From NCBI RefSeq assembly GCF_014779765.1, contig NZ_JACXZA010000002.1:824066-848065 (forward strand): DNA of 24,000 bases, written 5' to 3'. Under the pieces are notes generated by a model. That model was not told the DNA's origin. It did not search any database and saw only the letters and a list, made by a program, of their open reading frames with translations. Of this stretch, positions 1,669 to 14,144 are shown in pieces (position 1 is the first letter of the stretch; every line of letters starts with the position of its first letter). The DNA comes from Paenibacillus terricola. Its GTDB lineage: Bacteria > Bacillota > Bacilli > Paenibacillales > Paenibacillaceae. Made by a program: the position numbers and the translations under genes.

Positions 1669-3163
1669 CAGTCAATCCTTTAGATTCTGCGTTTCCGGTT
1701 GCGACGTTGTTTTGTCTGTTCGTCAGTCCTTTAATCAACTTATTCAGATCAAGACCGGATACGCTCTTCAGCATCTCTGGAGCCGTCGCCATTAGCGAGG
1801 TGACATAGTTACTTACTCTAGCGGCACCTTCACCATGACCGGTGTCAACAACCGTCAGTTGATCAATCCCTTTAATCGGCTCAGCAACTTTGCCGGCGAG
1901 TTCTGGCAGCATTTTGACGACGATATCAAGCACGGCAGCTTCTCCGAATTTCTCGAAAGCTTGCGCAAGCTTCTCCTTCGCCTCTGCTTCTGCTAAGCCT
2001 CTCAGACGAATAACCTCCGCCTCCGCCGTACCTTTCGCGCGTTCTGCATCCGCTATTGCGAGGCCTTCAAGCCTGCGCTGCTCCGCATTTGCTCTTGCCT
2101 CTGCTTCGATCCGGTATTGCACGGCATCCGCCTCACGCAGCTGCTTCGCTTTATCGGCTTCAGCTGCCTGCTCAACTGCATAACGGTCTGCATCGGCTTT
2201 CTTCTTCACTTCAGCATCGTACTGCTTCTCGCGGCGAAGAATTTCTTTGCCTTCGAGGTCGATCTCACGCTCTTTGCGAACGAGCTCTACGCGCATCTGT
2301 TCCTCGACCACAGACTGCTTCGCACGAGCTTCGTGAATCGAATAGGCTTGGTCCGCTTCTGCTTTCGCCGTGTCCTGCTCCTTCTTAAACGCAGCGATCT
2401 TCAGCTCTTTCTCCTTGCCGGCCTCTGCGATATTCGTATCCCTCAGCAGTTCCGCCTTCTGGCCTTCTTCTTCCGCTCTTGCTTTCTGTATTCTCGAGTC
2501 ACGGATCGCTTCAGCCTCAGCAATGTCCGCATCACGCTTAACAGCAGCAATACGCGGTTTACCGAGTGCTTCGAGATAACCATGTTTATCTCTTACATCC
2601 TTGATCGTGAAGGAAACAATCAAAAGTCCCATTTTCTTCAAATCGCGTGCGGCAACGCTTTGTACTTCTTGCGCAAACTTGTCGCGGTTACGATATACTT
2701 CTTCCACTGTCATGGAACCGAGAATCGCACGCAGATGACCTTCCAGCACCTCTTGGGCTTCAGATTTCAAAGACTCAATTGGTTTGCCCATGAACTGTTC
2801 AGCCGCTGTTGCTACGTCCTCAACAAGACCACCGATTTTGATGATCGCTACACCATCTGCGAGAACAGGCACACCTTGTTCTGTGTACACTTCAGGTGTC
2901 GATACATCAAGCTTATGAGACAGAAGCGATAGAAACTCCGACTGCTGGAAGATAGGCAGAATGAATGCGCCACCACCGCGTACGATTTTGATTTTACGAC
3001 CGGTATCATCGGTAGAGACGTTGCTGCTGCCCAAGAAAGAACCGGTAACGATCATTGCCTCATCCGGACCGACAGTCTTATATCTCGCCCAGAATGCAAG
3101 CCCCAGTACAATAATAACTCCAACAACAATTGACGGTATAATCAAATAATCAGGCATATTCAA
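1655..3163 (-). CDS. floT: Flotillin (SPFH/Band-7 domain protein, FloT/YuaG-like)
   Basis: 502 aa. It has an N-terminal membrane hairpin (IIPSIVVGVIIVLGLAFWARY), an SPFH domain and a long Ala/Glu/Lys-rich coiled-coil flotillin repeat region. The N-terminus MNMPDYLII parallels B. subtilis FloT. TTG start with AGGAG 5 nt upstream. Confidence 0.95.
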   Translation of the reverse strand: MNMPDYLIIPSIVVGVIIVLGLAFWARYKTVGPDEAMIVTGSFLGSSNVSTDDTGRKIKIVRGGGAFILPIFQQSEFLSLLSHKLDVSTPEVYTEQGVPVLADGVAIIKIGGLVEDVATAAEQFMGKPIESLKSEAQEVLEGHLRAILGSMTVEEVYRNRDKFAQEVQSVAARDLKKMGLLIVSFTIKDVRDKHGYLEALGKPRIAAVKRDADIAEAEAIRDSRIQKARAEEEGQKAELLRDTNIAEAGKEKELKIAAFKKEQDTAKAEADQAYSIHEARAKQSVVEEQMRVELVRKEREIDLEGKEILRREKQYDAEVKKKADADRYAVEQAAEADKAKQLREADAVQYRIEAEARANAEQRRLEGLAIADAERAKGTAEAEVIRLRGLAEAEAKEKLAQAFEKFGEAAVLDIVVKMLPELAGKVAEPIKGIDQLTVVDTGHGEGAARVSNYVTSLMATAPEMLKSVSGLDLNKLIKGLTNRQNNVATGNAESKGLTDEAN

Positions 3164-3187
3164 ATCTTCTCCTCTCTCTGATTGGAT

Positions 3188-3721
3188 TTATATATCGAAT
3201 TTCGATACGAACAGGACACCTTCTGACGCATCGACATCGACAACGATAATTTTGGCTTCCGATGGAATATCAGTTCCATAAAAGCTGGAAGCAATATAAT
3301 TGGAACGCGCTGCGCCAACCTGAATCAGGACCTCACCGAATCCTTGTGCGGGAATCGGGACCAGCACCTCGCCAATCAGACCTTCCAGCTCGCGAATCGA
3401 GAACCCTACTGAATTCTCGCTCCTTTCCATCGGTCGGATGTAAGCGAAGTACAAGCCCAGAGCAAGTGCTGACGCAATGAGGAATGTTAGGATGAGAACC
3501 ACGATATTACCCAATTCGGTGTATTCATGTAGAAGCAAGCCTGCCCCGCCGAATATCGTTACCCAACTAGCAATGACAGTAGGTCGGAATAAGCTGTACC
3601 CTTCGACCGACAAGAAATCGAGCGCACCGTCCAGCGATGCACTAATCCAATCACCTAATAGAACACTAATTATGGCGAATAGAATGCCTCCGACTAGACA
3701 TGACAAGAATAGCGTTTCCAT
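3188..3721 (-). CDS. yuaF: NfeD-family membrane protein (YuaF-like)
   Basis: 177 aa with several N-terminal TM helices and a C-terminal soluble beta domain (GEVLVPIPAQGFGEVLIQVGAARSNYIASS). It sits immediately upstream of flotillin, as in the B. subtilis yuaF-floT-yuaI operon. SD AAAGGAGGTG precedes the ATG. Confidence 0.85.
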   Translation of the reverse strand: METLFLSCLVGGILFAIISVLLGDWISASLDGALDFLSVEGYSLFRPTVIASWVTIFGGAGLLLHEYTELGNIVVLILTFLIASALALGLYFAYIRPMERSENSVGFSIRELEGLIGEVLVPIPAQGFGEVLIQVGAARSNYIASSFYGTDIPSEAKIIVVDVDASEGVLFVSKFDI

Positions 3722-3843
3722 TCCTACACCTCCTTTACAAATTGCTTAGCAGCAGCTAACGAATGTTTACGATAACGTTGGAGTCAGGCTTTTTAGTGAC
3801 CCTAAATATATGCCATCATGCGCAACGAGTATGCCGTCATCTT

Positions 3844-3880
3844 GCAAACGTACAAAAGGAGCCCTTGGCGACAGGCTCCT
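3844..3880 (-). terminator. Intrinsic terminator-like hairpin with no adjacent upstream minus-strand gene
   Basis: Stem aggagcc (3857-3863) pairs with ggctcct (3874-3880), a 7-bp stem with a 10-nt loop. On the minus strand it is followed by TTTTGTACGTTTG. The nearest upstream minus-strand CDS ends at 4371. Confidence 0.5.
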
Positions 3881-4140
3881 CCTATGTATGAAACGTATTT
3901 GGTTAACTTACTATAACTGCTGCTTATTATTATTTTACTATCAAACACTTCAGATGTAAATGTTTTACTTTACTAGTGTGTACATCCTACGACGAATACA
4001 GCAGAATCAGAAATCCAATACGACATGCTGCCAATCCCTCATCATTCAGACCTTCCCCTATTCCGTGACTTACATCGTTGAAAAAAGGAAATACTTGTGT
4101 CGTAGCCGTGACTTTCGAGCGGAAAAGGAGGGAACACTTC

Positions 4141-4308
4141 ATGCACCAATATCCAACCGCATCTTTACCGGTAGATGCCGTTCAGCAGATTCAGGATCTC
4201 GAGCATGCGTTATCGCGATCAACGGGAGACAATATCATTCTTATTGCGTACCAGCAGGACTCGAACGAGCAATCCGATGCTGCTCAATCGTTCTACGATA
4301 AGGATTAA
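4141..4308 (+). CDS. Small acidic hypothetical protein (55 aa)
   Basis: The ATG at 4141 is preceded by AAAAGGAGGG with a 7-8 nt spacer. The 4078 start in the ORF track lacks an SD. Product: MHQYPTASLPVDAVQQIQDLEHALSRSTGDNIILIAYQQDSNEQSDAAQSFYDKD. I recognise no family. Confidence 0.5.
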   Translation: MHQYPTASLPVDAVQQIQDLEHALSRSTGDNIILIAYQQDSNEQSDAAQSFYDKD

Positions 4309-4328
4309 GTACATAGTGAATGAAGCGC

Positions 4329-4362
4329 TTAGCCCAGGGAGGATCGACTTCTCTGGGCTAAC
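4329..4362. terminator. Hairpin between convergent genes (possible U-tract-poor bidirectional terminator)
   Basis: A 9-bp perfect stem, ttagcccag (4329-4337) with ctgggctaa (4354-4362). It lies between the small plus-strand gene (ends 4308) and the DHDPS-family gene (ends 4371). There is no clear T tract on either side. Confidence 0.4.
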
Positions 4363-4370
4363 TGCATTCC

Positions 4371-5264
4371 TTAAGATTGAAGCGCTAGACGTTGAATAAC
4401 TTCGTCCAATTGTTGTCGTGCTTTCTCATCCAACCCTTGAATCGGCTGAGGCAGATTGGGGTTGCTGCCAATTCCGAGCCGCAGCGCAGCGGAGGCGATT
4501 ACACGTAATCCGCCATGCTGACGGAACAATTCCCATAGAGGCTCCAACTGTTCCGACAGCGCCAGCGCTTCCTCTGCACTGCCTGTTAGAGCAGCGCGTG
4601 TAATTCGAAGACTGATCTCCGGATATAATCCACCAAGTACCGAGTACCATATATCACAGCCTGCGTTTAATCCAGCTGCAGCTGACCAATCCCCGCTAAT
4701 GCCGATTTTCACATGTGAAGGGATAAGAGCGCGAAGCTGGTCCACCCTCGCCTTCGCTTCATCGTGGTTCGACGATACAGGCGGGATTTTAATCGAACCA
4801 ATATTCGGCAGTTGAGCGATCTCGCCCAATAATTCATCACGGAAGGTGAAATGCGTCACGCGAGGATTATCGTACACACATAACGGAATCGACAACGAAC
4901 GAGTGACTGTTTCATAGAGTGAGTAAACTTCCCGTTCAGTCAACGGCTGATAGGAAACTGGAGCTAACAGCACTGCACTTACGCCTGCTTCCTGCGCATC
5001 TTCCGCAAATTGAAGAACATCACGCGTACGCAGAGAACCAATCCCAACCATAACCGGGATTCCATTCGCGTGCTGTACTGCAAATGTTGCAGCGCGCTTC
5101 CGTTCTTCTCGCGTAAGATAGGCATAGCTGCCGGTTGATCCCAAAGCGCTTATCGAGTCGACCTTCGCATCTGCCGCCCGCTGTATGAGTCGAATGAAAG
5201 CCTCCTCATCTATTCCTGATTCGTTCATTGGTGTTAGTGGAAATGCAGATAGACCTGTAAACAT
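4371..5264 (-). CDS. Dihydrodipicolinate synthase family protein (class I aldolase/lyase)
   Basis: MFTGLSAFPLTPMNESGIDEEAFIRLI...GSTGSYAYLTREERK...IGSIKIPP matches the DapA/NAL family layout with a candidate Schiff-base lysine. I place the start at ATG 5264 (M31 of the track ORF), which has AGGAGTGGTGATT directly upstream. Confidence 0.85.
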   Translation of the reverse strand: MFTGLSAFPLTPMNESGIDEEAFIRLIQRAADAKVDSISALGSTGSYAYLTREERKRAATFAVQHANGIPVMVGIGSLRTRDVLQFAEDAQEAGVSAVLLAPVSYQPLTEREVYSLYETVTRSLSIPLCVYDNPRVTHFTFRDELLGEIAQLPNIGSIKIPPVSSNHDEAKARVDQLRALIPSHVKIGISGDWSAAAGLNAGCDIWYSVLGGLYPEISLRITRAALTGSAEEALALSEQLEPLWELFRQHGGLRVIASAALRLGIGSNPNLPQPIQGLDEKARQQLDEVIQRLALQS

Positions 5265-5309
5265 AATCACCACTCCTAGTAGAAGCTTCTCAATATCACT
5301 ATGTAGCTC

Positions 5310-5338
5310 ATCATATCGGTTTGGACCATTGAACACAA
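5310..5338 (-). promoter_or_regulatory. Candidate sigma-A promoter for the DHDPS-family gene
   Basis: The minus strand reads TTGTGT, a 17-nt spacer, then TATGAT, about 45 nt upstream of ATG 5264. Confidence 0.35.
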
Positions 5339-5370
5339 TCCATCTGCAGGTCAAAAATGGAAGTTCGTAA

Positions 5371-5401
5371 TATAAAAATCACCCCTCATTCGAGGGGTGA
5401 T
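5371..5401 (-). terminator. Intrinsic terminator closing the Cys-peptide operon
   Basis: A perfect 10-bp stem, atcacccctc (5378-5387) with gaggggtgat (5392-5401), and a 4-nt loop. On the minus strand it is followed by TTTTATA. It begins 9 nt after the peptide stop codon. Confidence 0.85.
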
Positions 5402-5410
5402 CTCTACAAT

Positions 5411-5575
5411 CTAGCAGCAGCCGAGATTATATTGGCTAGTCAGTGTGCAAACGCCATCGCAATTGTAATAAATTTTATATTGAAAAGTTCTTTGATAATA
5501 AGCGCCGCCGGAGCACTGTGTGCTCAAGCAAGTTGCCGCGATTGGGCAAACTGAGTTATCAACTACACATGCCAT
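5411..5575 (-). CDS. 54-aa leaderless cysteine-rich peptide (8 Cys), candidate disulfide-rich defensin-like bacteriocin
   Basis: My own translation, not in the supplied track (under 60 aa): MACVVDNSVCPIAATCLSTQCSGGAYYQRTFQYKIYYNCDGVCTLTSQYNLGCC. ATG 5575 is preceded by AAGGGAGGTGA plus a 5-nt spacer. It lies 29 nt after the upstream gene stop and has a terminator 9 nt after its TAG. There is no signal peptide and no double-glycine leader. Confidence 0.7.
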   Translation of the reverse strand: MACVVDNSVCPIAATCLSTQCSGGAYYQRTFQYKIYYNCDGVCTLTSQYNLGCC

Positions 5576-5604
5576 GATTGTCACCTCCCTTCATAGGCAG
5601 TTTG

Positions 5605-6009
5605 TTAACCCTCGCCTACCGTAATATAAGTCTTACAAATTGGCCGTTCTTCTATTTCCAGCGAGTATTCGTAAACCCCCTCTTCGATAACCGGGAATCG
5701 AACATGTCCTATCATATCAATCCCTGGCACTCGGCCTGGCGGGCGCATATTCAAGATTGGCTGCAGCCCTACATAACTAAGAATCTTACCTGAAGCATTT
5801 CTTACAACAACGGCTGGAGAACGATTCTCCACATCGCCTTTCATCGATTCGGGAAACAACACCTTGACCAGCACTTCCGTTACAACCGCTGCAGGGAAAA
5901 TGGGTACAGTCACATGATTGTACGCGTGATGCACATTATGAAACTTTTCTTTGCTGTTGAACTGAACCTGCTCTGCGATGACGAGTTGGCCAACCACTTC
6001 ATTAAGCAT
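5605..6009 (-). CDS. Hypothetical protein (134 aa), unknown function, translationally coupled in the Cys-peptide operon
   Basis: ATG 6009 is preceded by GAAGGTGAT and overlaps the upstream stop (ATGCTTAA, an 8-nt overlap). The track start 6024 is a GTG inside the upstream gene. The product is beta-rich in appearance (VVVRNASGKILSYVG, EEGVYEYSLEIEERPICKTYITV), with no TM segment and no motif I can name. Confidence 0.7.
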   Translation of the reverse strand: MLNEVVGQLVIAEQVQFNSKEKFHNVHHAYNHVTVPIFPAAVVTEVLVKVLFPESMKGDVENRSPAVVVRNASGKILSYVGLQPILNMRPPGRVPGIDMIGHVRFPVIEEGVYEYSLEIEERPICKTYITVGEG

Positions 6010-6451
6010 TCCGATCACCTTCACTGTTCAGCGCTTGCGCAATTTGATCAAGCTGTTCGCCGTTCCCGTATTCAAGCACTTGTCCATCTGTATTCACAAC
6101 ATAAACGAATGGCGTGACCGGCACGTTGAAGTGATCATCATAATCCTCTAAGAACGAATAGATCGGGAAGTCAAACCCGAAGTATTCACGCATATCTTCC
6201 GTTTCCTCCAGATCACCATCTGTTACGAGAATGAAGCGATGATTGCCATTGAAACGCGCAAGCTCTGGAATTAATCGCATGCATGTACTGCAAGTCATCG
6301 AAATGAAATAAAAGATCGAAGTCGATTCAAGTTTAGGGGTTGGAGAAAGCTTCTCATAAGGAAACCTTTCGTTCTCGTCAAAAGGAGTAAACTCCGTTTT
6401 GCGCCCCCCATAGGCTTCCATAAATTTGCTCTTCAATTTCTCTAGCGACAT
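6002..6451 (-). CDS. Thioredoxin-fold thiol-disulfide oxidoreductase (TlpA/ResA-like), CSTC active site
   Basis: IFYFISMTCSTCMRLIPEL contains a CXXC motif after a beta strand. The later VPVTPFVYVVNTDGQV carries the cis-Pro region typical of the thioredoxin fold. SD AAGAGGGTGA precedes the ATG. No signal peptide or TM helix is visible. Confidence 0.8.
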   Translation of the reverse strand: MSLEKLKSKFMEAYGGRKTEFTPFDENERFPYEKLSPTPKLESTSIFYFISMTCSTCMRLIPELARFNGNHRFILVTDGDLEETEDMREYFGFDFPIYSFLEDYDDHFNVPVTPFVYVVNTDGQVLEYGNGEQLDQIAQALNSEGDRNA

Positions 6452-6468
6452 GAATTCACCCTCTTCGT

Positions 6469-6930
6469 CTATACGATTTTGACTAGCGGTTCAACGATAT
6501 GATCGAACGCCCCCATGAACAGACAGTTGTTCGTTTCTACAACCTGTCCTAACCGATTAAGTACAAACCCGCTTGGCAGCTCCATTACCCGCATTCTCTT
6601 CGTCAGGTCATGTTTCGTTACCCGATAAACATGTGGTACCCGTTCACCGAACACTTGCTGCACTTCTTCAAACATTTCTTCTTTACAGTAGATCAGAATG
6701 GCTATGTTATAACGCTTATGATGCTGCTCAAGGAACTGATCGAGTATTTCCATGGATTCCAGACAGCTTGTGCATTCAACACTGTAGCATAAGAAGAACA
6801 AGTGGTTCGTAATGAGATCGTACAACCGGAGCTCCCCTGCGTTCAGTGTTTGAATCGATATATCCGGCAAGTAATCGCCAAGGATAAGCGGGGACTTGAA
6901 GTACCTACTAATAGAATCAGGTTGGTTCAT
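6469..6930 (-). CDS. Thioredoxin-fold thiol-disulfide oxidoreductase (AhpC/TSA-redoxin-like), CTSC active site
   Basis: GDYLPDISIQTLNAGELRLYDL...LFFLCYSVECTSCLESM is the redoxin-type entry to a CXXC, followed later by ELPSGFVLNRLGQVV. I prefer ATG 6930 (AAGGGAG with a 9-nt spacer, 16 nt after the upstream stop) over the TTG at 6960 in the track. Confidence 0.8.
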   Translation of the reverse strand: MNQPDSISRYFKSPLILGDYLPDISIQTLNAGELRLYDLITNHLFFLCYSVECTSCLESMEILDQFLEQHHKRYNIAILIYCKEEMFEEVQQVFGERVPHVYRVTKHDLTKRMRVMELPSGFVLNRLGQVVETNNCLFMGAFDHIVEPLVKIV

Positions 6931-6946
6931 GCTCTTAAGCTCCCTT

Positions 6947-7357
6947 CTAAGCAACGTCAAAGATTCGGCTGTGCTCGCGAATTCGATACTTCTGATCCGT
7001 GATCAAATAAGAAGGCAAGTCCATCAATTCAAGCTTACGAAGTCGCTCCGCATCTTCATCGGCAATAACTTGAATTCCAGCAGGCAGCTTTCTTTGCATC
7101 AGATCTGCTTTCCAAGCAGGCGCTTGTAACAATACAAGAATAGGAATCTCGCCATACTTCCTACGAATGTGCTCGATGTGACGCATATAGGCTCTATCTT
7201 CTAACCCGATGCCAAGGAGCGCTGTAACAGGACTTAATGAAATGCCCATCTCTTGCAAAATTACACTCTTCAGCCGCTGCTGTCGTATGCGAATGATACG
7301 AACCGAAACGGTAAACGCTGTCATGAATATAAGCCAAATCACAATGCCTAGTGTCAT
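6947..7357 (-). CDS. Membrane-anchored thioredoxin-fold-like protein lacking cysteines (redox-inactive paralogue)
   Basis: It has an N-terminal TM helix (GIVIWLIFMTAFTVSV). The C-terminal region is colinear with its two neighbours: ILVLLQAPAWKADL occupies the place of the CXXC, and LPSYLITDQKY aligns with PFVYVVNTDG and PSGFVLNRLG. The protein has no Cys at all. ATGA start/stop overlap with the upstream gene, and a GAAGGAGG SD. Confidence 0.65.
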   Translation of the reverse strand: MTLGIVIWLIFMTAFTVSVRIIRIRQQRLKSVILQEMGISLSPVTALLGIGLEDRAYMRHIEHIRRKYGEIPILVLLQAPAWKADLMQRKLPAGIQVIADEDAERLRKLELMDLPSYLITDQKYRIREHSRIFDVA

Positions 7358-7950
7358 AATGCCACCGCCTCCTTCTTCAGCTTATTCATATACGTCCATT
7401 CCACGTATAGCTGATAAAGATAAGCGATGGATGAATAGATGAGAAACATCGTAACATGCGGGTGTTCAATGCTTATGTAGGATGGTTGAAGACTTATCCC
7501 GAGCAAGGCTAATAGGGCGAGTATCGTATTGCGCACAATCGCGAGCTTCTGGTTCGTAAACTTATCGCTTCTGCCGAAGCAGGAGCACTTGATCGGTTTC
7601 TTGCTTAACTGTTGGCGCAGGAAGAGTAAGGAGAAACAAGCAAGCAATAGAAAAGCAGCAATGTAGCTGATACCAAGGAGGATGTTTAACGAGAAGGTAA
7701 CACCAAGCAGTAATTCAAGTCCAAGAACAGCAATGGATGCTAAGTAAGTCTTCCAATTAAGCTGTTTGCCGATAACATTGAAATCAACGATGGCGTATAA
7801 AAAAGGTCTGAAGCTGAGGAGTTTGGCCATGAACGAACTGAAAAACAACAGCGAAAAGATGCCAGGTAAAATTAGAATCGCAACCCCTACTTTCCAAGTG
7901 AGCGCTTCCACTTCTGTCCAATCACAGTTGTCTTGAGAGGATAATAGCAT
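7354..7950 (-). CDS. MauE/DoxX-family redox-associated integral membrane protein
   Basis: 198 aa with 4-5 predicted TM helices. A CSCFG motif lies between helices, matching the CxCFG signature I associate with the MauE family. It is the first gene of the operon. The SD upstream of ATG 7950 is weak. Confidence 0.7.
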   Translation of the reverse strand: MLLSSQDNCDWTEVEALTWKVGVAILILPGIFSLLFFSSFMAKLLSFRPFLYAIVDFNVIGKQLNWKTYLASIAVLGLELLLGVTFSLNILLGISYIAAFLLLACFSLLFLRQQLSKKPIKCSCFGRSDKFTNQKLAIVRNTILALLALLGISLQPSYISIEHPHVTMFLIYSSIAYLYQLYVEWTYMNKLKKEAVAL

Positions 7951-8001
7951 AGTGTTCGGAGTGAATCAACAAATTTATTTATCTTTTTATGGTTTTATTA
8001 A

Positions 8002-8030
8002 CTGATTTAGTCATCTAGATAGCAAATCAG
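8002..8030. promoter_or_regulatory. Dyad-symmetric element in the AT-rich region upstream of the Cys-peptide operon (possible operator)
   Basis: Plus strand ctgatttagtcATCTAGATagcaaatcag. The 7-bp outer arms CTGATTT and AAATCAG flank a perfect 8-bp palindrome ATCTAGAT. It lies 52-80 bp upstream of ATG 7950. Confidence 0.25.
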
Positions 8031-8171
8031 ATAATGTTGATATTAACGATTGGATTACTACTTTTTTTTATGATAAGTATGAATAACAAAGCACCCCTCC
8101 TGTTAGTCAGTTTCACCTCCTATCACTAGAAAATTCGATGAACAGAATCGCAATCACCGCTATACGATGCA

Positions 8172-8212
8172 CAAAAGGCTAAGGGGAAGTCTCTTACTCC
8201 ATCCCCTTAGCC
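8172..8212 (-). terminator. Intrinsic terminator after the 384-aa membrane-anchored protein gene
   Basis: An 11-bp stem, ggctaagggga (8177-8187) with tccccttagcc (8202-8212), is followed on the minus strand by TTTTG. Confidence 0.7.
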
Positions 8213-8232
8213 CTCTAATACGAACTACTGTA

Positions 8233-10563: not shown

Positions 10564-11601
10564 CTAATGAGCAGCTTGCCGATCCAGAATAGCCCGAACT
10601 TGATTCACCGCATCGTCCAGACTCCGGACAGATAGAGTCATCTGCGGCGATTCCTCATATTGATCCGTCGTATAGTTGTATCTTGGATCATAGTAGTACT
10701 CTAGCAGCATCCGAACAGCCGGTTCATATCGTTCAGCTTCCAGACAAGAAGCAATCTCAGTTGCAATTGGCGTATGAATACGAGATTTAATGCCATTAAA
10801 AGCTTTCAGGTACACTTCTTTATGTCCTGTCGGATAATCCTCGAGAATGCGCTGTACTCGCATATCCACTGGCGCTTCGATCATAATCGACGTACCTGCT
10901 TCCTTCTTCTTGACGAGAAAATCAGGAAGAACAGCCTTGCCGATACGCTTGCTCTCCGCTTCAAGAACGACGTAGGGCGTATCCTGCAGCGTCAGCAACT
11001 TCTCCAGCAGCAAGGCTTCGAACGTTTTCTGATTGTTTGCTCGTAGCCCGACCTCACCAAAGATCGATCCACGATGACCTGCCAGCTGCTCCAGATCCAA
11101 TACAGGATAACCTTCTGATTCAAGCTGCTTCAATATCGCCGTCTTCCCCGTACCCGTATTGCCATGCAGCACAACCGCGTTTGGTTTAAAATCAAACGAT
11201 TCCAGCGTCTCGACGACCCACTTGCGATACGCACGAAATCCGCCATTCAGCCGATAGACATGTATGCCCATCAATGAAAGAACGGTTGCTGTCGTTCTAC
11301 TGCGCATACCGCCCCGCCAACAGAACACAGCCTTTTTCTCTTTGATCTGATCGATCTCGCGGATGAATGCAGGAAGTTTCGCAGAGACGACCTCTAGCCC
11401 TCTCTCCTTCGCGGCTTGAATGCTCGTCTGCTTGTACAGCGTACCGATCTCGGCACGCTCTTCATCATTGAACAGTGGGATGTTAATGCTGCCAGGGATC
11501 GTCGATTCCCGAAATTCGGATGGGGATCGAACGTCAATCGTAACGAGCTCCCTATTGTCTCGTTGGGCTCTAAGTTCTTCAATTGTAATGTCTTGAAACA
11601 A
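10564..11601 (-). CDS. mnmH: tRNA 2-selenouridine(34) synthase
   Basis: An N-terminal rhodanese domain carries the active-site motif FCWRGGMRS. It is followed by the P-loop HGNTGTGKT. Length 345 aa. It lies downstream of selD. TTG start with AAGGAG 9 nt upstream. Confidence 0.9.
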   Translation of the reverse strand: MFQDITIEELRAQRDNRELVTIDVRSPSEFRESTIPGSINIPLFNDEERAEIGTLYKQTSIQAAKERGLEVVSAKLPAFIREIDQIKEKKAVFCWRGGMRSRTTATVLSLMGIHVYRLNGGFRAYRKWVVETLESFDFKPNAVVLHGNTGTGKTAILKQLESEGYPVLDLEQLAGHRGSIFGEVGLRANNQKTFEALLLEKLLTLQDTPYVVLEAESKRIGKAVLPDFLVKKKEAGTSIMIEAPVDMRVQRILEDYPTGHKEVYLKAFNGIKSRIHTPIATEIASCLEAERYEPAVRMLLEYYYDPRYNYTTDQYEESPQMTLSVRSLDDAVNQVRAILDRQAAH

Positions 11602-11615
11602 GTCGATTCGCTCCT

Positions 11616-11860
11616 TACATCAGGATCTTTGAACGGAGTTCAAAGTCACTCAGCTGCTACATCAGGATCTTTGAACGGAGTTCAAAGTCACTCAGCTGCT
11701 ACATCAGGATCTTTGAACACGACATAGGGATCTTTGCGCTCGCGCAAAGTCTCTCTGCTATCAAAGTCACTCTGCTGCTACATCAGGATCTTTGAACACG
11801 ACATAGGGATCTTTGCGCTCGCGCAAAGTCTCTCTGCTCTTAAAGTCACGCTGCTTTACA
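11616..11860. repeat. Tandem hairpin-forming repeat array filling the selD-mnmH intergenic spacer
   Basis: There are two identical 42-nt units (11616-11657, 11658-11699). Two 79-nt units follow (11700-11778, 11779-11857), identical over their first 59 nt. All four start with tacatcaggatctttgaac. Hairpins are CTTTGAAC-gga-GTTCAAAG and CTTTGCGC-tc-GCGCAAAG. Confidence 0.9.
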
Positions 11861-11868
11861 CCTTCAGG

Positions 11869-12918
11869 TTATTCAACAACAATGTGGCCGGGATGCTCGT
11901 CGACGACATGACCGATGATGCTTGCTTCAACGCCTTGCTGAACAAGCTGTTCAAGCAGTTGATCGGCTTGCTCTGGATTAACCGAGATGAGCAGCCCACC
12001 TGAAGTTACAGCATCGCACAGGATCCAGCGGTCGATCTGATCCATCGAATCCGGGAAAGTGACGAACGGCTGAATATGATTGAAGTTATTTTTTGTTCCG
12101 CCTGGTACAAAGCCTTGCTCGGCAAGCTCGCGAGTACGGTTCAGCACCGGTACTTGATCCTTTACGATACGTAGTCCAGCACCACTGCCTTTCGCCATCT
12201 CCGATGCATGACCTAGCAGACCAAAGCCTGTTACGTCCGTGCAGCCATGCACTTCATAATTGCTCATGATTTCAGCGGCTGTCTTATTGAGTGTCGCCAT
12301 TACGTTCGTCACGCGTTTTACTTCTTCTTCGGACAGTTGGTCCTTCTTGATCGAGGTCGTCATAATGCCAACGCCGATGGGCTTCGTCAGAATCAGCTTG
12401 TCGCCCGGCTTCGCGCCAGCATTTGCTTTGATTTTGTCCGGATGAATCAGCCCTGTAACTGCCATTCCGAACTTCGGTTCTTTATCGTCAATGGAGTGAC
12501 CGCCAACGAGCGTCGCTCCCGCCTCTTGTACTTTATCAGCAGCACCGCGCAGAATGTCTGCCAGCACTTGCTTGTCTAACGTCGTAATCGGGAATGCGAC
12601 GATATTTAATACCGTTAATGGCTTGCCGCCCATCGCATAAATATCGCTTATCGCGTTCGCCGCCGCAATCTGGCCGAAGGAGTAAGGATCATCAACGATC
12701 GGCGTGAAGAAATCGACGGTTTGAACGAGCGCCAGTTCGTCGTTCAAACGATATACGCCAGCATCGTCACTCGTATCCAGTCCGACGAGCAGATCAGGAT
12801 TGGGTGTCGTTGGCGGAAGACTGCGAATGACTTGCATGAGATCCGCTGGACCGATTTTGCAGCCGCATCCGCCTTTGCTTGATAATGATGTAAGTTTAAT
12901 GGATTCCGCTTGAGTCAT
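11869..12918 (-). CDS. selD: Selenide, water dikinase (selenophosphate synthetase), Cys-type
   Basis: The N-terminal motif SSKGGCGCKIGPADL is the Cys/Lys active-site loop. The AIR-synthase-like PurM fold is present throughout (DDAGVY, GGHSIDD). 349 aa. Confidence 0.95.
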   Translation of the reverse strand: MTQAESIKLTSLSSKGGCGCKIGPADLMQVIRSLPPTTPNPDLLVGLDTSDDAGVYRLNDELALVQTVDFFTPIVDDPYSFGQIAAANAISDIYAMGGKPLTVLNIVAFPITTLDKQVLADILRGAADKVQEAGATLVGGHSIDDKEPKFGMAVTGLIHPDKIKANAGAKPGDKLILTKPIGVGIMTTSIKKDQLSEEEVKRVTNVMATLNKTAAEIMSNYEVHGCTDVTGFGLLGHASEMAKGSGAGLRIVKDQVPVLNRTRELAEQGFVPGGTKNNFNHIQPFVTFPDSMDQIDRWILCDAVTSGGLLISVNPEQADQLLEQLVQQGVEASIIGHVVDEHPGHIVVE

Positions 12919-12998
12919 GACACACTTTCCTTTCGAATTGCTCGTAATGTATTGCCGATAACATCCTTCAGTAATAGTACATCATTCAGATTACTATC

Positions 12999-13027
12999 GC
13001 AAAATGAATGCCGCTTTGTGATATAAT
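12999..13027 (+). promoter_or_regulatory. Candidate extended -10 sigma-A promoter for the permease gene
   Basis: TGATATAAT (13019-13027) is a TGnTATAAT extended -10 element. A weak -35 (gcaaaa) lies 17 nt upstream. It is 35 nt before ATG 13062, whose SD is GGAGGG. Confidence 0.45.
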
Positions 13028-13061
13028 GTTGAAGCTTCAATTAGAATGATGGAGGGTAAGT

Positions 13062-14144
13062 ATGTCGCAGCACAATCAAACATCGATGAGACAACAGGGT
13101 GCCAACTTGAAAACCATTCTGTTGATTCTGGTATTCATCCTAATCGCTGCCGCAGGGCTAAGTTATGTGAAATGGTGGCCGTATTATCATAAAGCAATAA
13201 AAGCAATAACGGACCATACGATTGGATCTTCGATCTTAACAGGTAAAGAACCAACCGTTCCAAGTCCCTCCTGGAATGCAGCCTGGAGTTATGCTGTTAC
13301 TTATTACAAAGCAGTATGGAAAGCGGCTGTACTCGGCATTGTGCTGGGATCGCTTGTTCAAGTCCTGCTCCCTTCAGGTTGGTTGCAGCGTGCATTAGGC
13401 CAAACATCGCTTCGCAACACAGCGATTGGCGGCATGGCTTCTGTTCCTGGCATGATGTGCACATGCTGCGCGGCTCCGATTGCAATCGGCCTGCACAAGA
13501 AGAAGGTTTCTCCTGCTGCGACCCTAGCGTTCTGGCTCGGCAATCCGTTGATCAACCCGGCAACGCTCATCTTCATGACATTCGTACTATCGTGGAAATT
13601 CACGGTTATCCGTATTATATTCGGACTTCTTATTACGCTGGGCGTGAGCTACTTCGCTGCTCGACTAATGGGTAACGCGGAAGTTTCGAATGAAACCATG
13701 GAGAAATCGATGCCAATGGAACCACAACCACAGCGGGAGGCGCCAATGTGGCGCAGATGGATGGTTAGCATGTGGACAATGATACTCAATGTTGTACCAG
13801 CCTATTTCATCTCGGTGCTTGTACTTGGAGCTGCAAGAGCTTGGCTCTTCCCTTCACTTGGCGAGACAGGCATGGATATGGCGTTGATGGTCATCATTTT
13901 CTCCATTGCGGGCGCATTGTTCGTCATTCCAACGGCTGCAGAGATTCCAATCATTCAGTCGTTCTTGGCGCTTGGATTCGGCGGCGGACCAGCGGCAGCG
14001 CTTCTCGTTGTCCTGCCAGCGGTCAGCCTCCCTTCCCTGTTAATGATACGCAGCGCCTTCCCAGCGCGGGTCGTCTGGTTTATTCTCACCGCAGTGATTG
14101 GCTTAGGTTTAATAAGCGGCATTGTCGGTGCCATTGTTATATAA
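13062..14144 (+). CDS. Permease of the UPF0718/ArsP (predicted permease, COG0701-like) family
   Basis: 360 aa and polytopic. The signature region GGMASVPGMMCTCCAAPIAIGLHKKKVSPAATLAFWLGNPLINPATLIFM resembles the Cys-containing helix and the FLxxxPxxN segment of this family. It is transcribed divergently from selD. Confidence 0.8.
   Translation: MSQHNQTSMRQQGANLKTILLILVFILIAAAGLSYVKWWPYYHKAIKAITDHTIGSSILTGKEPTVPSPSWNAAWSYAVTYYKAVWKAAVLGIVLGSLVQVLLPSGWLQRALGQTSLRNTAIGGMASVPGMMCTCCAAPIAIGLHKKKVSPAATLAFWLGNPLINPATLIFMTFVLSWKFTVIRIIFGLLITLGVSYFAARLMGNAEVSNETMEKSMPMEPQPQREAPMWRRWMVSMWTMILNVVPAYFISVLVLGAARAWLFPSLGETGMDMALMVIIFSIAGALFVIPTAAEIPIIQSFLALGFGGGPAAALLVVLPAVSLPSLLMIRSAFPARVVWFILTAVIGLGLISGIVGAIVI

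What the first reader, a model, noticed from the sequence alone, without database searches (positions are those of the whole stretch)
5371..7950. Self-contained operon pairing a MauE-like membrane protein and three thioredoxin-fold paralogues with a terminal octa-cysteine peptide
Seen in sequence: six minus-strand genes are packed as one translationally coupled unit.
- There is an ATGA overlap at 7354-7357 and an 8-nt overlap at 6002-6009.
- The remaining gaps are 16-29 nt, each with its own SD.
- The unit is bounded upstream by the terminator of the preceding gene plus an AT-rich region of about 220 bp.
- It is bounded downstream by a perfect 10-bp hairpin terminator.

Gene order: MauE/DoxX-like membrane protein (CSCFG), TM-anchored Cys-less Trx-fold protein, CTSC redoxin, CSTC thioredoxin-like protein, unknown 134-aa protein, 54-aa peptide with 8 Cys.

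Established knowledge: MauE and MauD are required to mature the disulfide-rich small subunit of methylamine dehydrogenase. Dedicated thiol-disulfide oxidoreductases also sit in some bacteriocin loci (bdbA/bdbB with sublancin, PedC with pediocin, BlpG with thermophilin 9).

Inference: this is a private oxidative-folding module for the peptide encoded at the 3-prime end. The unusual points are:
- There is no leader peptide, no ABC exporter or peptidase, and no RiPP-modifying enzyme.
- Both CXXC proteins lack visible export signals, so where oxidation happens (which side of the membrane) is unclear.

I do not know of a described system with this composition.
Basis: partly seen in the sequence, partly recalled or inferred. 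Interest (0 to 1): 0.88.

Follow-up and report, generated by a model that had tools for sequence, protein, structure and literature searches.

The report
Cysteine-rich peptide with own folding enzymes
A six-gene Paenibacillus operon encodes a small eight-cysteine peptide together with a membrane oxidase (MauE) and thioredoxin-like helpers that most likely staple it with disulfide bonds. The same helper genes sit, so far undescribed, next to the known defensin-like bacteriocin laterosporulin, so this is a new variant of a partly known antimicrobial-peptide system.

Summary

- **Source and conservation.** The window is from Paenibacillus sp. PR3. The six-gene cassette recurs intact in P. cellulosilyticus and six other contigs while its flanks vary.
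- **The peptide is a real gene.** The 54-aa ORF, mostly missed by gene callers, is under purifying selection (dN/dS 0.05-0.25) and all 8 Cys are invariant.
- **Distant relatives.** MauE-subfamily loci in Paenibacillus, Rossellomorea and Brevibacillus carry the same helper set: two signal-less CxxC thioredoxin-fold proteins, MauE, a TM-anchored Cys-less protein and a DUF6941 beta-sandwich. Each complete locus also has a ~600-aa ABC exporter and a leaderless Cys-rich peptide starting M-(A/V)-C.
- **Link to laterosporulin.** In P. alba and B. laterosporus B9 that peptide is a bona fide laterosporulin. The published 4-kb laterosporulin cluster stopped just before MauE.
- **What differs here.** The window is a laterosporulin-type cassette without the exporter, with an orphan 8-Cys peptide that fails the laterosporulin HMMs.
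- **Mechanism (inferred).** MauE, a DsbB-like quinone-linked CXC oxidase, oxidises the CxxC carriers, which put four disulfides into the peptide.
- **Topology (predicted only).** Charge bias and missing export signals place the whole relay on the cytoplasmic face.

The third thioredoxin fold is unconfirmed. Antimicrobial activity and export route are unknown.

The parts
8166..8213 (-). Intrinsic terminator of the preceding 384-aa gene; upstream boundary of the unit
   Evidence: An 11-bp or longer stem GGCTAAGGGGA/TCCCCTTAGCC followed by a T-run. Folds at -28.8 kcal/mol, z = -5.0. Sequence read.
7926..8060 (-). Conserved non-coding control region. It contains upstream blocks (GTAATCCAATCGTTAAT, ACATTATCYGATT, TTAATAAAACCATAAAAAGATAAATAAA), a -35 TTGATT (7964-7969), an extended -10 TGcTATTAT (7941-7949) and a conserved 5' leader CCTCTCAAGACAACT.
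   Evidence: The promoter scan finds TTGATT-17-TATTAT with a TG. A five-locus DNA alignment shows long invariant runs here, although synonymous sites in the genes are close to saturated (dS 0.4-2). No Rfam family matches. A regulator-binding role is inferred.
7354..7911 (-). MauE-family membrane protein, 185 aa from the GTG at 7911 (the mechanical ORF runs to the ATG at 7950). It carries a C-S-C active-site motif and conserved Lys30 and Glu66. It is the predicted quinone-linked disulfide generator.
   Evidence: PF07291 at 68.7 bits. Homologues are 185 aa. C109, C111, K30 and E66 are invariant or nearly so in 142 aligned MauE sequences. A 2026 preprint shows that MauE replaces DsbB and that the CXC is its active site. 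K/R bias places the CXC loop on the cytoplasmic side.
6947..7357 (-). 136-aa protein with one N-terminal TM helix, then an Arg/Lys cluster, then a Cys-less alpha/beta domain with a conserved xAPEW(K/R) motif and a later (F/Y)P(S/A) motif. Here called TM0. Predicted orientation is N-out/C-in. Candidate membrane-anchored scaffold.
   Evidence: Start overlaps the MauE stop (ATGA). Homologues directly follow MauE in all eight distant loci. No Pfam or PDB match. The thioredoxin fold is not confirmed.
6469..6930 (-). 153-aa soluble thioredoxin-fold protein with CTSC. Here called TrxA type; it is the orthologue of laterosporulin-cluster ORF3.
   Evidence: Weak Pfam Thioredoxin_8/Redoxin hits and a weak NCBIfam ResA hit. 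The family profile hits tryparedoxin and ResA structures at E = 2e-4. BLASTP links it to L015 and L024 counterparts. No N-terminal hydrophobic segment.
6002..6451 (-). 149-aa soluble thioredoxin-fold protein with CSTC, pI 4.4. Here called TrxB type; it is the orthologue of laterosporulin-cluster ORF5, which was annotated 'AhpC/TSA' with MauD-like hits.
   Evidence: The family profile hits ResA/StoA structures at E = 8e-7. BLASTP finds the counterpart in all seven distant genome loci at 1e-8 to 1e-15. No signal peptide. Relatives mostly carry CxHC or CSYC motifs.
5605..6009 (-). 134-aa DUF6941-like beta-sandwich protein; soluble, role unknown (candidate chaperone or immunity factor)
   Evidence: The window protein scores 16.9 bits against PF22091 over its full length, below the cut-off of 27. 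Six of 10 family members hit it, best E = 5.5e-9. The AF2 model (pLDDT 74) is all-beta and Ig-like, with only generic PDB matches. It has the lowest dN/dS in the cassette, 0.04-0.075. It is present in every distant locus.
5411..5575 (-). 54-aa leaderless peptide MACVVDNSVCPIAATCLSTQCSGGAYYQRTFQYKIYYNCDGVCTLTSQYNLGCC. It has 8 Cys, net charge 0 and 7 aromatic residues. It is the presumed substrate and product of the cassette.
   Evidence: A strong SD (gggaggtga) lies upstream. The ORF is present in all seven related contigs at 72-93 % identity, with all 8 Cys invariant and dN/dS 0.05-0.25. Only one database homologue exists. It has no hit to the laterosporulin HMMs or to PDB. Its Cys framework is in the same order as the 8-Cys peptides of L015, L018, L024 and L025.
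5372..5401 (-). Intrinsic terminator closing the operon
   Evidence: A GC-rich hairpin with a 4-nt loop and a T-run. Folds at -25.9 kcal/mol, z = -8.1. The same hairpin is conserved after the peptide gene in L001, L002, L003 and L007.

Best explanation
The six genes form one operon that makes and oxidatively folds a leaderless, disulfide-stapled peptide of the laterosporulin type of system (class IId, defensin-like bacteriocins).

**Proposed relay**
1. MauE is the disulfide generator. It is a DsbB-like membrane protein whose C-S-C motif is re-oxidised by a membrane quinone held by the conserved Lys and Glu.
2. MauE passes disulfides to the two soluble CxxC thioredoxin-fold proteins: the TrxB type (CSTC, MauD-like) and the TrxA type (CTSC).
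3. These carriers introduce, and perhaps shuffle, the four disulfides of the 54-aa peptide.
4. The TM-anchored Cys-less protein that always follows MauE probably tethers the carriers or the peptide at the membrane.
5. The DUF6941 beta-sandwich is a conserved accessory, possibly a chaperone or self-protection factor.

**Where it happens**
None of the soluble parts has an export signal. Both membrane proteins have a charge bias that puts their functional parts inside the cell. The relay is therefore predicted to work on the cytoplasmic face, before release of the peptide.

**Shown versus inferred**
- Shown here: operon architecture, conservation, selection, gene-for-gene homology to the laterosporulin locus, and conservation of the catalytic residues.
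- Inferred: the direction of electron flow, the order of the carriers, the topology, antimicrobial activity, and the export route (this clade lacks the ABC exporter found in relatives).
For: **Architecture and selection**
- Translational coupling, one promoter and one terminator.
- The cassette is kept intact in 8 contigs while its flanks vary.
- All six genes are under purifying selection. The peptide has dN/dS 0.05-0.25 and 8 of 8 Cys are invariant.

**Rarity and subfamily**
- An exhaustive MauE profile search finds only 124 representatives at E <= 1e-3.
- They define a ~170-aa subfamily with invariant CxCFG.

**Distant loci**
- Seven loci (L008, L015, L018, L024, L025, L026, L028) and B. 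laterosporus B9 (L044) carry MauE, TM0, the DUF6941 protein and the TrxB type.
- Where the sequence reaches far enough, they also carry the TrxA type and an ABC gene.
- A leaderless 6- or 8-Cys peptide gene with a strong SD is present in every locus whose sequence extends far enough.
- The P. alba peptide is 51 % identical to laterosporulin (E = 6e-19) and passes NF033806 and PF17861.
- The B9 locus shows laterosporulin-TrxA-ABC-TrxB-MauE-TM0-DUF6941 contiguously, with overlapping stops and starts.
- This matches ORF2-ORF5 of the published 4-kb region by order and exact sizes: 486, about 1851 and 435 bp.

**Biochemical background**
- Laterosporulin has three structural disulfides and loses only its initiator Met (PMC3293901 and PMC6510442).
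- MauE complements a dsbB deletion, its CXC is essential, and a conserved Lys and Glu sit at the quinone (preprint). These residues are invariant here.

**Topology**
- No N-terminal hydrophobic segment in any TrxA-type or TrxB-type protein.
- TM0 has its K/R cluster after the helix.
- In MauE, K/R count is 9-13 on the CXC side against 0-2 (mostly 0-1) on the other side. Gram-negative MauE gives -3 to +3 on the same measure.
Against: - The window peptide has no detectable sequence similarity to laterosporulin or to the other 8-Cys peptides: BLASTP E > 1, hhalign 1 %, no HMM hit. Homology of the peptide rests only on context, on leaderless M-A-C...CP...CC features and on the order of its Cys residues.
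- The peptide is uncharged, unlike most bacteriocins.
- There is no exporter, immunity-like small membrane protein or regulator in the cassette or anywhere in the 24-kb window.
- Cytoplasmic disulfide formation runs against the reducing cytoplasm. It also runs against the periplasmic topology reported for the two MauE proteins tested experimentally.
- The topology argument is only a positive-inside count.
- The TM0 fold and the DUF6941 role are unknown.
- No expression or activity data exist for this locus.
- In L007, MauE carries an in-frame stop at codon 6.
Confidence: 0.7

Rival explanations
1. Same dedicated folding module, but oxidation happens outside the membrane as in canonical MauE/DsbB systems. 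MauE's CXC would face out and oxidise the peptide after it leaves the cell. The signal-less CxxC proteins would act inside as holdases or reductases that keep the peptide unfolded and harmless until export.
For: The two MauE proteins tested experimentally work in the E. coli periplasm and are predicted to have the CXC outside. Known bacteriocin-linked oxidoreductases such as BdbB and PedC act extracytoplasmically (established knowledge). Relatives have an ABC exporter in the operon.
Against: The CXC loop and loop 1 carry 9-13 Lys/Arg against 0-2 on the other side in this subfamily, which is the opposite of the Gram-negative pattern. TM0 is predicted N-out/C-in. Under this reading two conserved CxxC proteins would have no redox partner. 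The window clade has no exporter at all.
Confidence: 0.17
2. The module folds the peptide, but the peptide is not an antimicrobial. It could be a structural, spore-associated, signalling or metal/metalloid-binding Cys-rich peptide that stays with the cell, which would explain the missing exporter.
For: The peptide has net charge 0 and the clade lacks an ABC exporter and an immunity gene. The cassette sits beside selD, selU and an ArsP-type permease in all close relatives. There is no sequence similarity to any characterised bacteriocin.
Against: The accessory set is gene-for-gene that of a proven bacteriocin locus. The sel/ArsP synteny is absent from the distant loci, and variable genes are inserted between selU and MauE. 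The N-terminal part of laterosporulin is also non-cationic (PMC3293901).
Confidence: 0.1
3. The redox genes are a general thiol-disulfide or stress system, and the small ORF is a passenger or is not translated.
For: Only MauE passes a curated family threshold. Gene callers skip the small ORF in most contigs.
Against: The peptide ORF has dN/dS 0.05-0.25 with invariant Cys and a conserved strong SD. A Cys-rich leaderless ORF co-occurs in all informative loci across three genera. The MauE subfamily is rare, with 18 representatives at E <= 1e-10 among 1.8 billion, which is not what a housekeeping gene looks like.
Confidence: 0.03

Closest known systems
Laterosporulin / laterosporulin10 locus of Brevibacillus laterosporus (class IId defensin-like bacteriocin; NCBIfam NF033806, Pfam PF17861)
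   Same: - The peptide is leaderless and starts M-A-C...CP.
- It is a disulfide-stapled small peptide.
- The accessory genes are homologous one for one: TrxA type (= ORF3), TrxB type (= ORF5), MauE, TM-anchored Cys-less protein and DUF6941 protein.
- Genes are translationally coupled.
- There is no peptidase or RiPP enzyme.
   Different: - The window peptide has 8 Cys rather than 6, ends in CC and is uncharged.
- It fails both laterosporulin HMMs and pairwise tests.
- There is no ABC exporter and no LuxR-type regulator.
- The gene order is permuted, with the peptide last instead of first.
- In the literature only ORF1-ORF5 of the laterosporulin locus were described. MauE, TM0 and DUF6941 were not.
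Methylamine dehydrogenase maturation genes mauE/mauD
   Same: A MauE-family membrane protein is paired with a CxxC thioredoxin-fold partner to make a multi-disulfide small polypeptide. The CXC, Lys and Glu are conserved.
   Different: - There are no other mau genes.
- The TrxB-type protein scores 13.7 bits against MauD, whose cut-off is 188.6.
- The partners lack signal peptides.
- The predicted topology is opposite.
- There are two CxxC carriers plus two extra conserved proteins.
Sublancin locus sunA-sunT-bdbA-sunS-bdbB of Bacillus subtilis SPbeta (own knowledge); also PedC (pediocin) and BlpG (thermophilin 9)
   Same: A bacteriocin operon that carries its own thiol-disulfide oxidoreductase pair: a membrane oxidase plus a thioredoxin-like protein.
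   Different: - The membrane oxidase there is DsbB-family (BdbB), not MauE.
- The precursors have leaders cleaved by a C39 ABC transporter.
- Oxidation there is extracytoplasmic.
- There is no DUF6941 or TM0 counterpart.
Engineered cytoplasmic disulfide formation with inverted DsbB or VKOR (CyDisCo variants; Hatahet & Ruddock 2013, cited in PMC4727284)
   Same: It is the same logic as the predicted topology here: a quinone-linked membrane oxidase whose active site faces the cytoplasm and feeds a cytoplasmic thioredoxin-fold carrier.
   Different: That system is man-made. Here it would be natural, MauE-based and dedicated to one peptide. The topology here is predicted, not measured.

Membership tests
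MauE (Pfam PF07291) | Profile match above the gathering score | tested here: met
   68.7 bits against a cut-off of 27, covering residues 24-152 and profile positions 4-126 of 128.
MauE (functional, DsbB-like oxidase) | CXC active-site motif between TM3 and TM4, plus the conserved Lys and Glu proposed to hold the quinone | tested here: met
   C109-S-C111, K30 and E66 are invariant or nearly so in 142 aligned sequences, including Gram-negative MauE. The features are defined in preprint 10.64898/2026.03.05.709764.
MauE (functional, DsbB-like oxidase) | CXC loop on the extracytoplasmic side | tested here: not met
   A positive-inside count puts the loop inside: 8 K/R in the loop and 4 in loop 1, against 1 in the N-terminus plus loop 2. 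This is a prediction only; experimental mapping is not possible with these tools.
MauD (NCBIfam TIGR02661) | Equivalog profile match | tested here: not met
   The 149-aa protein scores 13.7 bits against a cut-off of 188.6. It is MauD-like only in a broad sense.
TlpA/ResA-like thioredoxin fold | Sequence-profile match to solved thioredoxin-fold structures, a CxxC motif and a cis-Pro | tested here: met
   The TrxB-type family profile hits ResA/StoA at E = 8e-7, and the TrxA-type profile hits tryparedoxin/ResA at E = 2e-4. CxxC and the later Pro are invariant. Single sequences fall below the Pfam cut-offs.
TlpA/ResA-like thioredoxin fold (the Cys-less 136-aa protein) | Detectable thioredoxin fold | tested here: inconclusive
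   hhalign gives 13 % against the TrxA type and 2 % against the TrxB type. There is no PDB or Pfam hit. The AF2 model has pLDDT 60 with a beta-alpha-beta-alpha-beta-alpha-beta-beta order that is compatible with the fold, but the fold search returned Rossmann-like noise.
Laterosporulin family (NF033806 / PF17861) | Profile match of the peptide | tested here: not met
   The window peptide has no hit even at E <= 10. Positive controls pass: the P. alba peptide scores 52.5 and 36.7 bits, and BGSP7 scores 109.7 and 81.7 bits.
Laterosporulin family (NF033806 / PF17861) | Six-Cys framework C-x3-CP...C...C...C...C | tested here: not met
   The window peptide has 8 Cys with spacings 6, 5, 4, 17, 3, 9, 0. 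Laterosporulins have spacings 3, 13-16, 14, 7, 7.
Laterosporulin-type gene cluster | Leaderless peptide (only the initiator Met removed) encoded with the TrxA type, TrxB type, MauE, TM0 and DUF6941 genes | tested here: met
   Gene-for-gene BLASTP and profile correspondence. M-A-C N-terminus.
Laterosporulin-type gene cluster | Dedicated ~600-aa ABC exporter in the operon | tested here: not met
   It is absent from the cassette, from the whole 24-kb window and from the flanks of all close relatives.
DUF6941 (Pfam PF22091) | Profile match above the gathering score | tested here: inconclusive
   The window protein scores 16.9 bits against a cut-off of 27, but the match covers the full length. Six of 10 aligned family members match, best E = 5.5e-9.
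Bacteriocin (functional class) | Secreted peptide with antimicrobial activity and producer immunity | not testable with these tools
   No activity, secretion or immunity data exist. The assignment is inferred only from the homologous accessory set.

The most novel reading that the evidence does not exclude
The MauE of this subfamily would be a naturally inverted disulfide generator. Its CXC loop, the two signal-less CxxC carriers and the TM-anchored partner would form a quinone-driven oxidative-folding relay on the cytoplasmic face of a bacterial membrane. It would staple a leaderless peptide inside the cell before release. That is a natural counterpart of the engineered inverted DsbB/VKOR systems, and a dedicated cytoplasmic disulfide pathway in a mesophilic bacterium. 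As a corollary, MauE, TM0 and DUF6941 would be the missing host factors that made heterologous laterosporulin expression fail.
Probability: 0.35. Interest if true: 0.85.

Novelty: new variant of a known kind. Interest (0 to 1): 0.64.

Why it matters
**1. A hidden helper set for defensin-like bacteriocins.** The work defines a conserved set of MauE, two CxxC carriers, a TM-anchored partner and DUF6941. This set accompanies defensin-like leaderless bacteriocins in Paenibacillaceae and Bacillaceae. It lies just beyond the end of the published laterosporulin cluster. Two groups reported failed heterologous expression of that cluster (PMC6510442). Including the three downstream genes is a direct, cheap test.

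**2. An unannotated peptide family.** The loci expose 8-Cys, CC-terminated leaderless peptides that gene callers usually miss. These are candidate new antimicrobial scaffolds.

**3. A physiological client for MauE.** MauE has only just been shown to be a DsbB-like oxidase. These loci give it a natural dedicated substrate in Gram-positive bacteria.

**4. A possible natural cytoplasmic disulfide relay.** If the predicted inverted topology is right, this would be a naturally occurring membrane-linked cytoplasmic disulfide-forming relay. That matters for redox biology and for producing disulfide-rich peptides in bacterial cytoplasm.

Tried and rejected
- **Word-indexed homologue searches.** Searches with the peptide, the 134-aa protein and MauE returned only the narrow clade.
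- **PDB sequence searches.** Searches with the peptide, the 134-aa protein, an 8-Cys relative and the TM0 profile found nothing useful.
- **The search for related loci.** I replaced it with a degenerate DNA pattern for F..CxCFG..TN..RN.
- **Same pattern on metagenomes.** It added no new type of locus. About a third of the hits in both scans were chance out-of-frame matches.
- **Peptide homology to laterosporulin.** BLASTP and hhalign tests were negative, so I do not file the window peptide as a laterosporulin.
- **Thioredoxin fold of the 136-aa protein.** It could not be confirmed.
- **Rfam scan of the region.** It returned only a sub-threshold GcvB hit over the terminator, which I rejected.
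- **Selenium link.** selD, selU and ArsP lie upstream. I set this aside because the synteny is limited to close relatives, and variable genes are inserted between selU and MauE.
- **20-codon ORF with a strong SD at about 8027-8089.** It is not conserved in the other loci, so I did not count it as a part.
- **Literature search for MauE plus bacteriocin.** It returned only author-name matches.

Full report
**Observation**

The minus strand between 5371 and 7950 carries six tightly packed ORFs.
- I confirmed the ATGA overlap at 7354-7357 and the 8-nt overlap at 6002-6009.
- The remaining gaps are 16, 17 and 29 nt, and each start has a GGAGG-like Shine-Dalgarno sequence.
- The downstream hairpin (ATCACCCCTC-GAAT-GAGGGGTGAT plus a T-run, 5372-5401) folds at -25.9 kcal/mol, z = -8.1.
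- The upstream gene ends in its own terminator at about 8166-8213 (-28.8 kcal/mol).
- An AT-rich stretch follows that terminator (GC 0.32).

- The ATG at 7950 lies inside a conserved extended -10 box (TTGATT-17-TGcTATTAT). Homologues start at the GTG at 7911, which gives a 185-aa MauE.
- The Cys-less 136-aa protein could not be shown to have a thioredoxin fold.

**Identity of the products**

- Only MauE passes a curated threshold (PF07291, 68.7 bits).
- The two CxxC proteins give weak Thioredoxin_8, Redoxin, ResA and MauD hits on their own.
- Family profiles built from the relatives found later hit solved ResA, StoA and tryparedoxin structures at E = 8e-7 and 2e-4.
- The 134-aa protein is DUF6941-like. 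Its own score is 16.9 bits over the full length, and six of ten relatives match, best E = 5.5e-9.
- Its AF2 model (pLDDT 74) is an Ig-like beta-sandwich with no specific structural neighbour.
- The peptide is MACVVDNSVCPIAATCLSTQCSGGAYYQRTFQYKIYYNCDGVCTLTSQYNLGCC. It has 8 Cys, net charge 0 and 7 aromatic residues.
- The peptide has no Pfam, NCBIfam or PDB relative.

**Close relatives**

- The window is from Paenibacillus sp. PR3, since the 134-aa protein is 100 % identical to H8B09_11070.
- The same six genes in the same order occur in P. cellulosilyticus and in six Logan, JGI and ENA contigs.
- Gene callers had skipped the peptide ORF in six of the seven contigs, but tblastn finds it in all of them at 72-93 % identity with all eight Cys invariant.
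- Pairwise dN/dS for the peptide is 0.05-0.25 at dS 0.7-1.7. The other five genes give 0.04-0.26. The small ORF is therefore a real gene.
- The flanks vary. Different genes are inserted between selU and MauE, and between the peptide and the DHDPS or NfeD genes. The cassette behaves as a unit.
- A block of about 135 nt upstream is almost invariant across the five variants. It holds the promoter, three upstream blocks and the 5' leader. This is a probable regulator-binding region, and no Rfam family matches it.

**Distant relatives**

- An exhaustive profile search with MauE found only 124 representatives at E <= 1e-3, of which 18 are at E <= 1e-10.
- They form a ~170-aa subfamily with invariant C-x-C-F-G...R-N.
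- A degenerate DNA pattern for this motif retrieved eight Bacillales loci from the species-representative genomes.
- Seven of them are distant from the window, with MauE 30-39 % identical.
- All seven carry MauE, then a TM-anchored Cys-less protein with a conserved xAPEW(K/R) motif, then a DUF6941 protein. A TrxB-type CxxC protein sits directly before MauE.
- Five of them also have a ~600-aa ABC exporter and a TrxA-type CxxC protein further upstream.
- Every locus whose sequence reaches far enough carries a leaderless Cys-rich peptide gene with a strong SD. These are L015 (MACSCP..., 8 Cys), L018, L024 and L025 (8 Cys, ending in CC) and L026 (6 Cys).
The linkage survives it.

**Connection to laterosporulin**

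- The L026 (P. alba) peptide is 51 % identical to laterosporulin variants published in PMC6510442 (E = 6e-19).
- It passes NCBIfam NF033806 and Pfam PF17861.
- The L024 8-Cys peptide aligns full-length to laterosporulin at E = 1e-4.
- Table S1 of the original laterosporulin paper lists, in a 4-kb region: a LuxR regulator, laterosporulin, a 486-bp hypothetical ORF with weak thioredoxin hits, an 1851-bp ABC transporter, and a 435-bp 'AhpC/TSA' ORF with MauD-like hits. The sequenced region ends there.
- In B. laterosporus B9 (CP011076, unannotated in PLSDB) I found these genes with the same sizes. They are followed directly, with overlapping stop and start codons, by MauE (5989-6522), TM0 (6519-6935) and DUF6941 (6953-7351 of L044).
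- The published cluster was therefore truncated.
- Both groups that tried heterologous expression failed and suspected missing host factors (PMC6510442).
- A literature search found no paper that links laterosporulin with MauE.

**What the window system is**

- It is gene-for-gene the accessory set of a laterosporulin-type locus: TrxA type = 153 aa, TrxB type = 149 aa, MauE, TM0 and DUF6941.
- The gene order is permuted and the peptide comes last.
- There is no ABC exporter or regulator in the cassette or anywhere else in the 24-kb window.
- The peptide cannot be tied to laterosporulin or to the other 8-Cys peptides by sequence: BLASTP E > 1, hhalign 1 %, no HMM hit.
- It shares with them only a leaderless M-A-C start, a C-P motif, richness in aromatic residues, a terminal CC and the same order of eight Cys.
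- I therefore do not file the peptide as a laterosporulin. I describe the locus as a new variant of that kind of system.

**Mechanism**

- A 2026 preprint shows that MauE proteins from two Gram-negative species replace DsbB in E. coli.
- The same work shows that their CXC is essential and that a conserved Lys and Glu are predicted to sit at the quinone head group.
- These four residues are invariant or nearly so in 142 aligned MauE sequences, including the window protein.
- The most likely flow is peptide thiols to the CxxC carriers, then to the MauE CXC, then to menaquinone. This flow is inferred.
- In most relatives the TrxB motif is CxHC or CSYC. A His before the second Cys is the hallmark of oxidising DsbA and PDI motifs (established knowledge).

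**Location of the relay**

- No TrxA-type, TrxB-type or DUF6941 protein in any locus has an N-terminal hydrophobic segment.
- TM0 always has its Lys/Arg cluster after the helix, which predicts N-out/C-in.
- In this MauE subfamily, loop 1 plus the CXC loop carry 9-13 Lys/Arg. The N-terminus plus loop 2 carry 0-2, mostly 0-1.
- Gram-negative MauE sequences give a difference of -3 to +3 on the same measure. Two of those loci also have lipoprotein-type exported partners.
- Taken together, this predicts a cytoplasm-facing relay.
- An engineered precedent exists in inverted DsbB or VKOR, but a natural one would be new.
- This step is a prediction from charge counts only.

**Rival explanations**

- Extracytoplasmic oxidation with canonical topology is the main rival.
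- A non-antimicrobial role for the peptide is possible. It is neutral, has no exporter, and lies beside selD, selU and ArsP.
- A housekeeping role for the redox genes is very unlikely, given the rarity of the subfamily and its strict co-occurrence with Cys-rich peptides.

**Verdict**

- The helper set itself, the 8-Cys peptide family and the predicted cytoplasmic topology are, as far as the searchable literature shows, undescribed.
- All of these points are directly testable.

Noticed in passing
L044 (B. laterosporus B9, NZ_CP011076.1 229544-242044), positions 2045-7351; also L008: The published 4-kb laterosporulin cluster (HE579167) ends at its ORF5. MauE, a TM-anchored Cys-less protein and a DUF6941 protein follow it directly with overlapping stop and start codons. 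This may explain two reported failures of heterologous expression. The PLSDB record has no annotated features in this stretch.
   Followed up: yes
L018 2149-2349; L024 986-1177; L025 (reverse complement) 710-901; L015 (reverse complement) 3026-3223: An unannotated family of 63-66-aa leaderless peptides with 8 Cys, ending in CC or CCG. Each has a strong SD and lies upstream of the TrxA-ABC-TrxB-MauE module. None matches the laterosporulin HMMs. One aligns to laterosporulin at E = 1e-4.
   Followed up: partly
window 10564-14144 (and L001-L007 upstream parts): selU (rhodanese plus SelU AAA domain), selD (AIRS/AIRS_C) and a divergent ArsP_1 permease lie upstream of the cassette in all close relatives. 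Variable genes are inserted between selU and MauE. No functional link to the cassette was found, and the distant loci lack this synteny.
   Followed up: partly
window 4141-4305 (+): A conserved acidic small ORF of about 54 aa (MHQYPTASLPVDAVQQIQDLEHALS...) with no Cys. It is 75 % identical to small genes called in L001-L006 between the cassette side and the NfeD/flotillin genes. The mechanical 113-aa ORF at 3960-4301 in another frame is probably spurious.
   Followed up: partly
L007 4024-4578: In this Logan contig the MauE gene has an in-frame stop at codon 6 (VEALT*KVG) and no alternative upstream start. It could be a pseudogene, a sequencing error or a different start. The rest of the cassette is intact there.
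   Followed up: no
window 7926-8060 (-): The non-coding block upstream of the promoter is nearly invariant in five diverged loci. It contains two copies of an ATC(N)GTTAATA-like motif about 55 nt apart. This is a probable operator for an unidentified regulator, and no regulator gene is adjacent.
   Followed up: partly
window 8027-8089 (-): A 20-codon ORF (TTG start, MLFILIIKKSSNPIVNINII) lies behind a strong AGGAGGGG SD just upstream of the conserved block. Its 5' half is not conserved in the other loci, so it is probably chance.
   Followed up: partly
P0035-P0135 (MauE representatives): Nearly all 124 representatives recovered by the profile share the Lys/Arg-rich CXC loop, including longer proteins of 286-363 aa with C-terminal extensions. 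The predicted inverted topology may therefore extend well beyond the bacteriocin-linked Bacillales group. Their taxonomy and context could not be examined.
   Followed up: no
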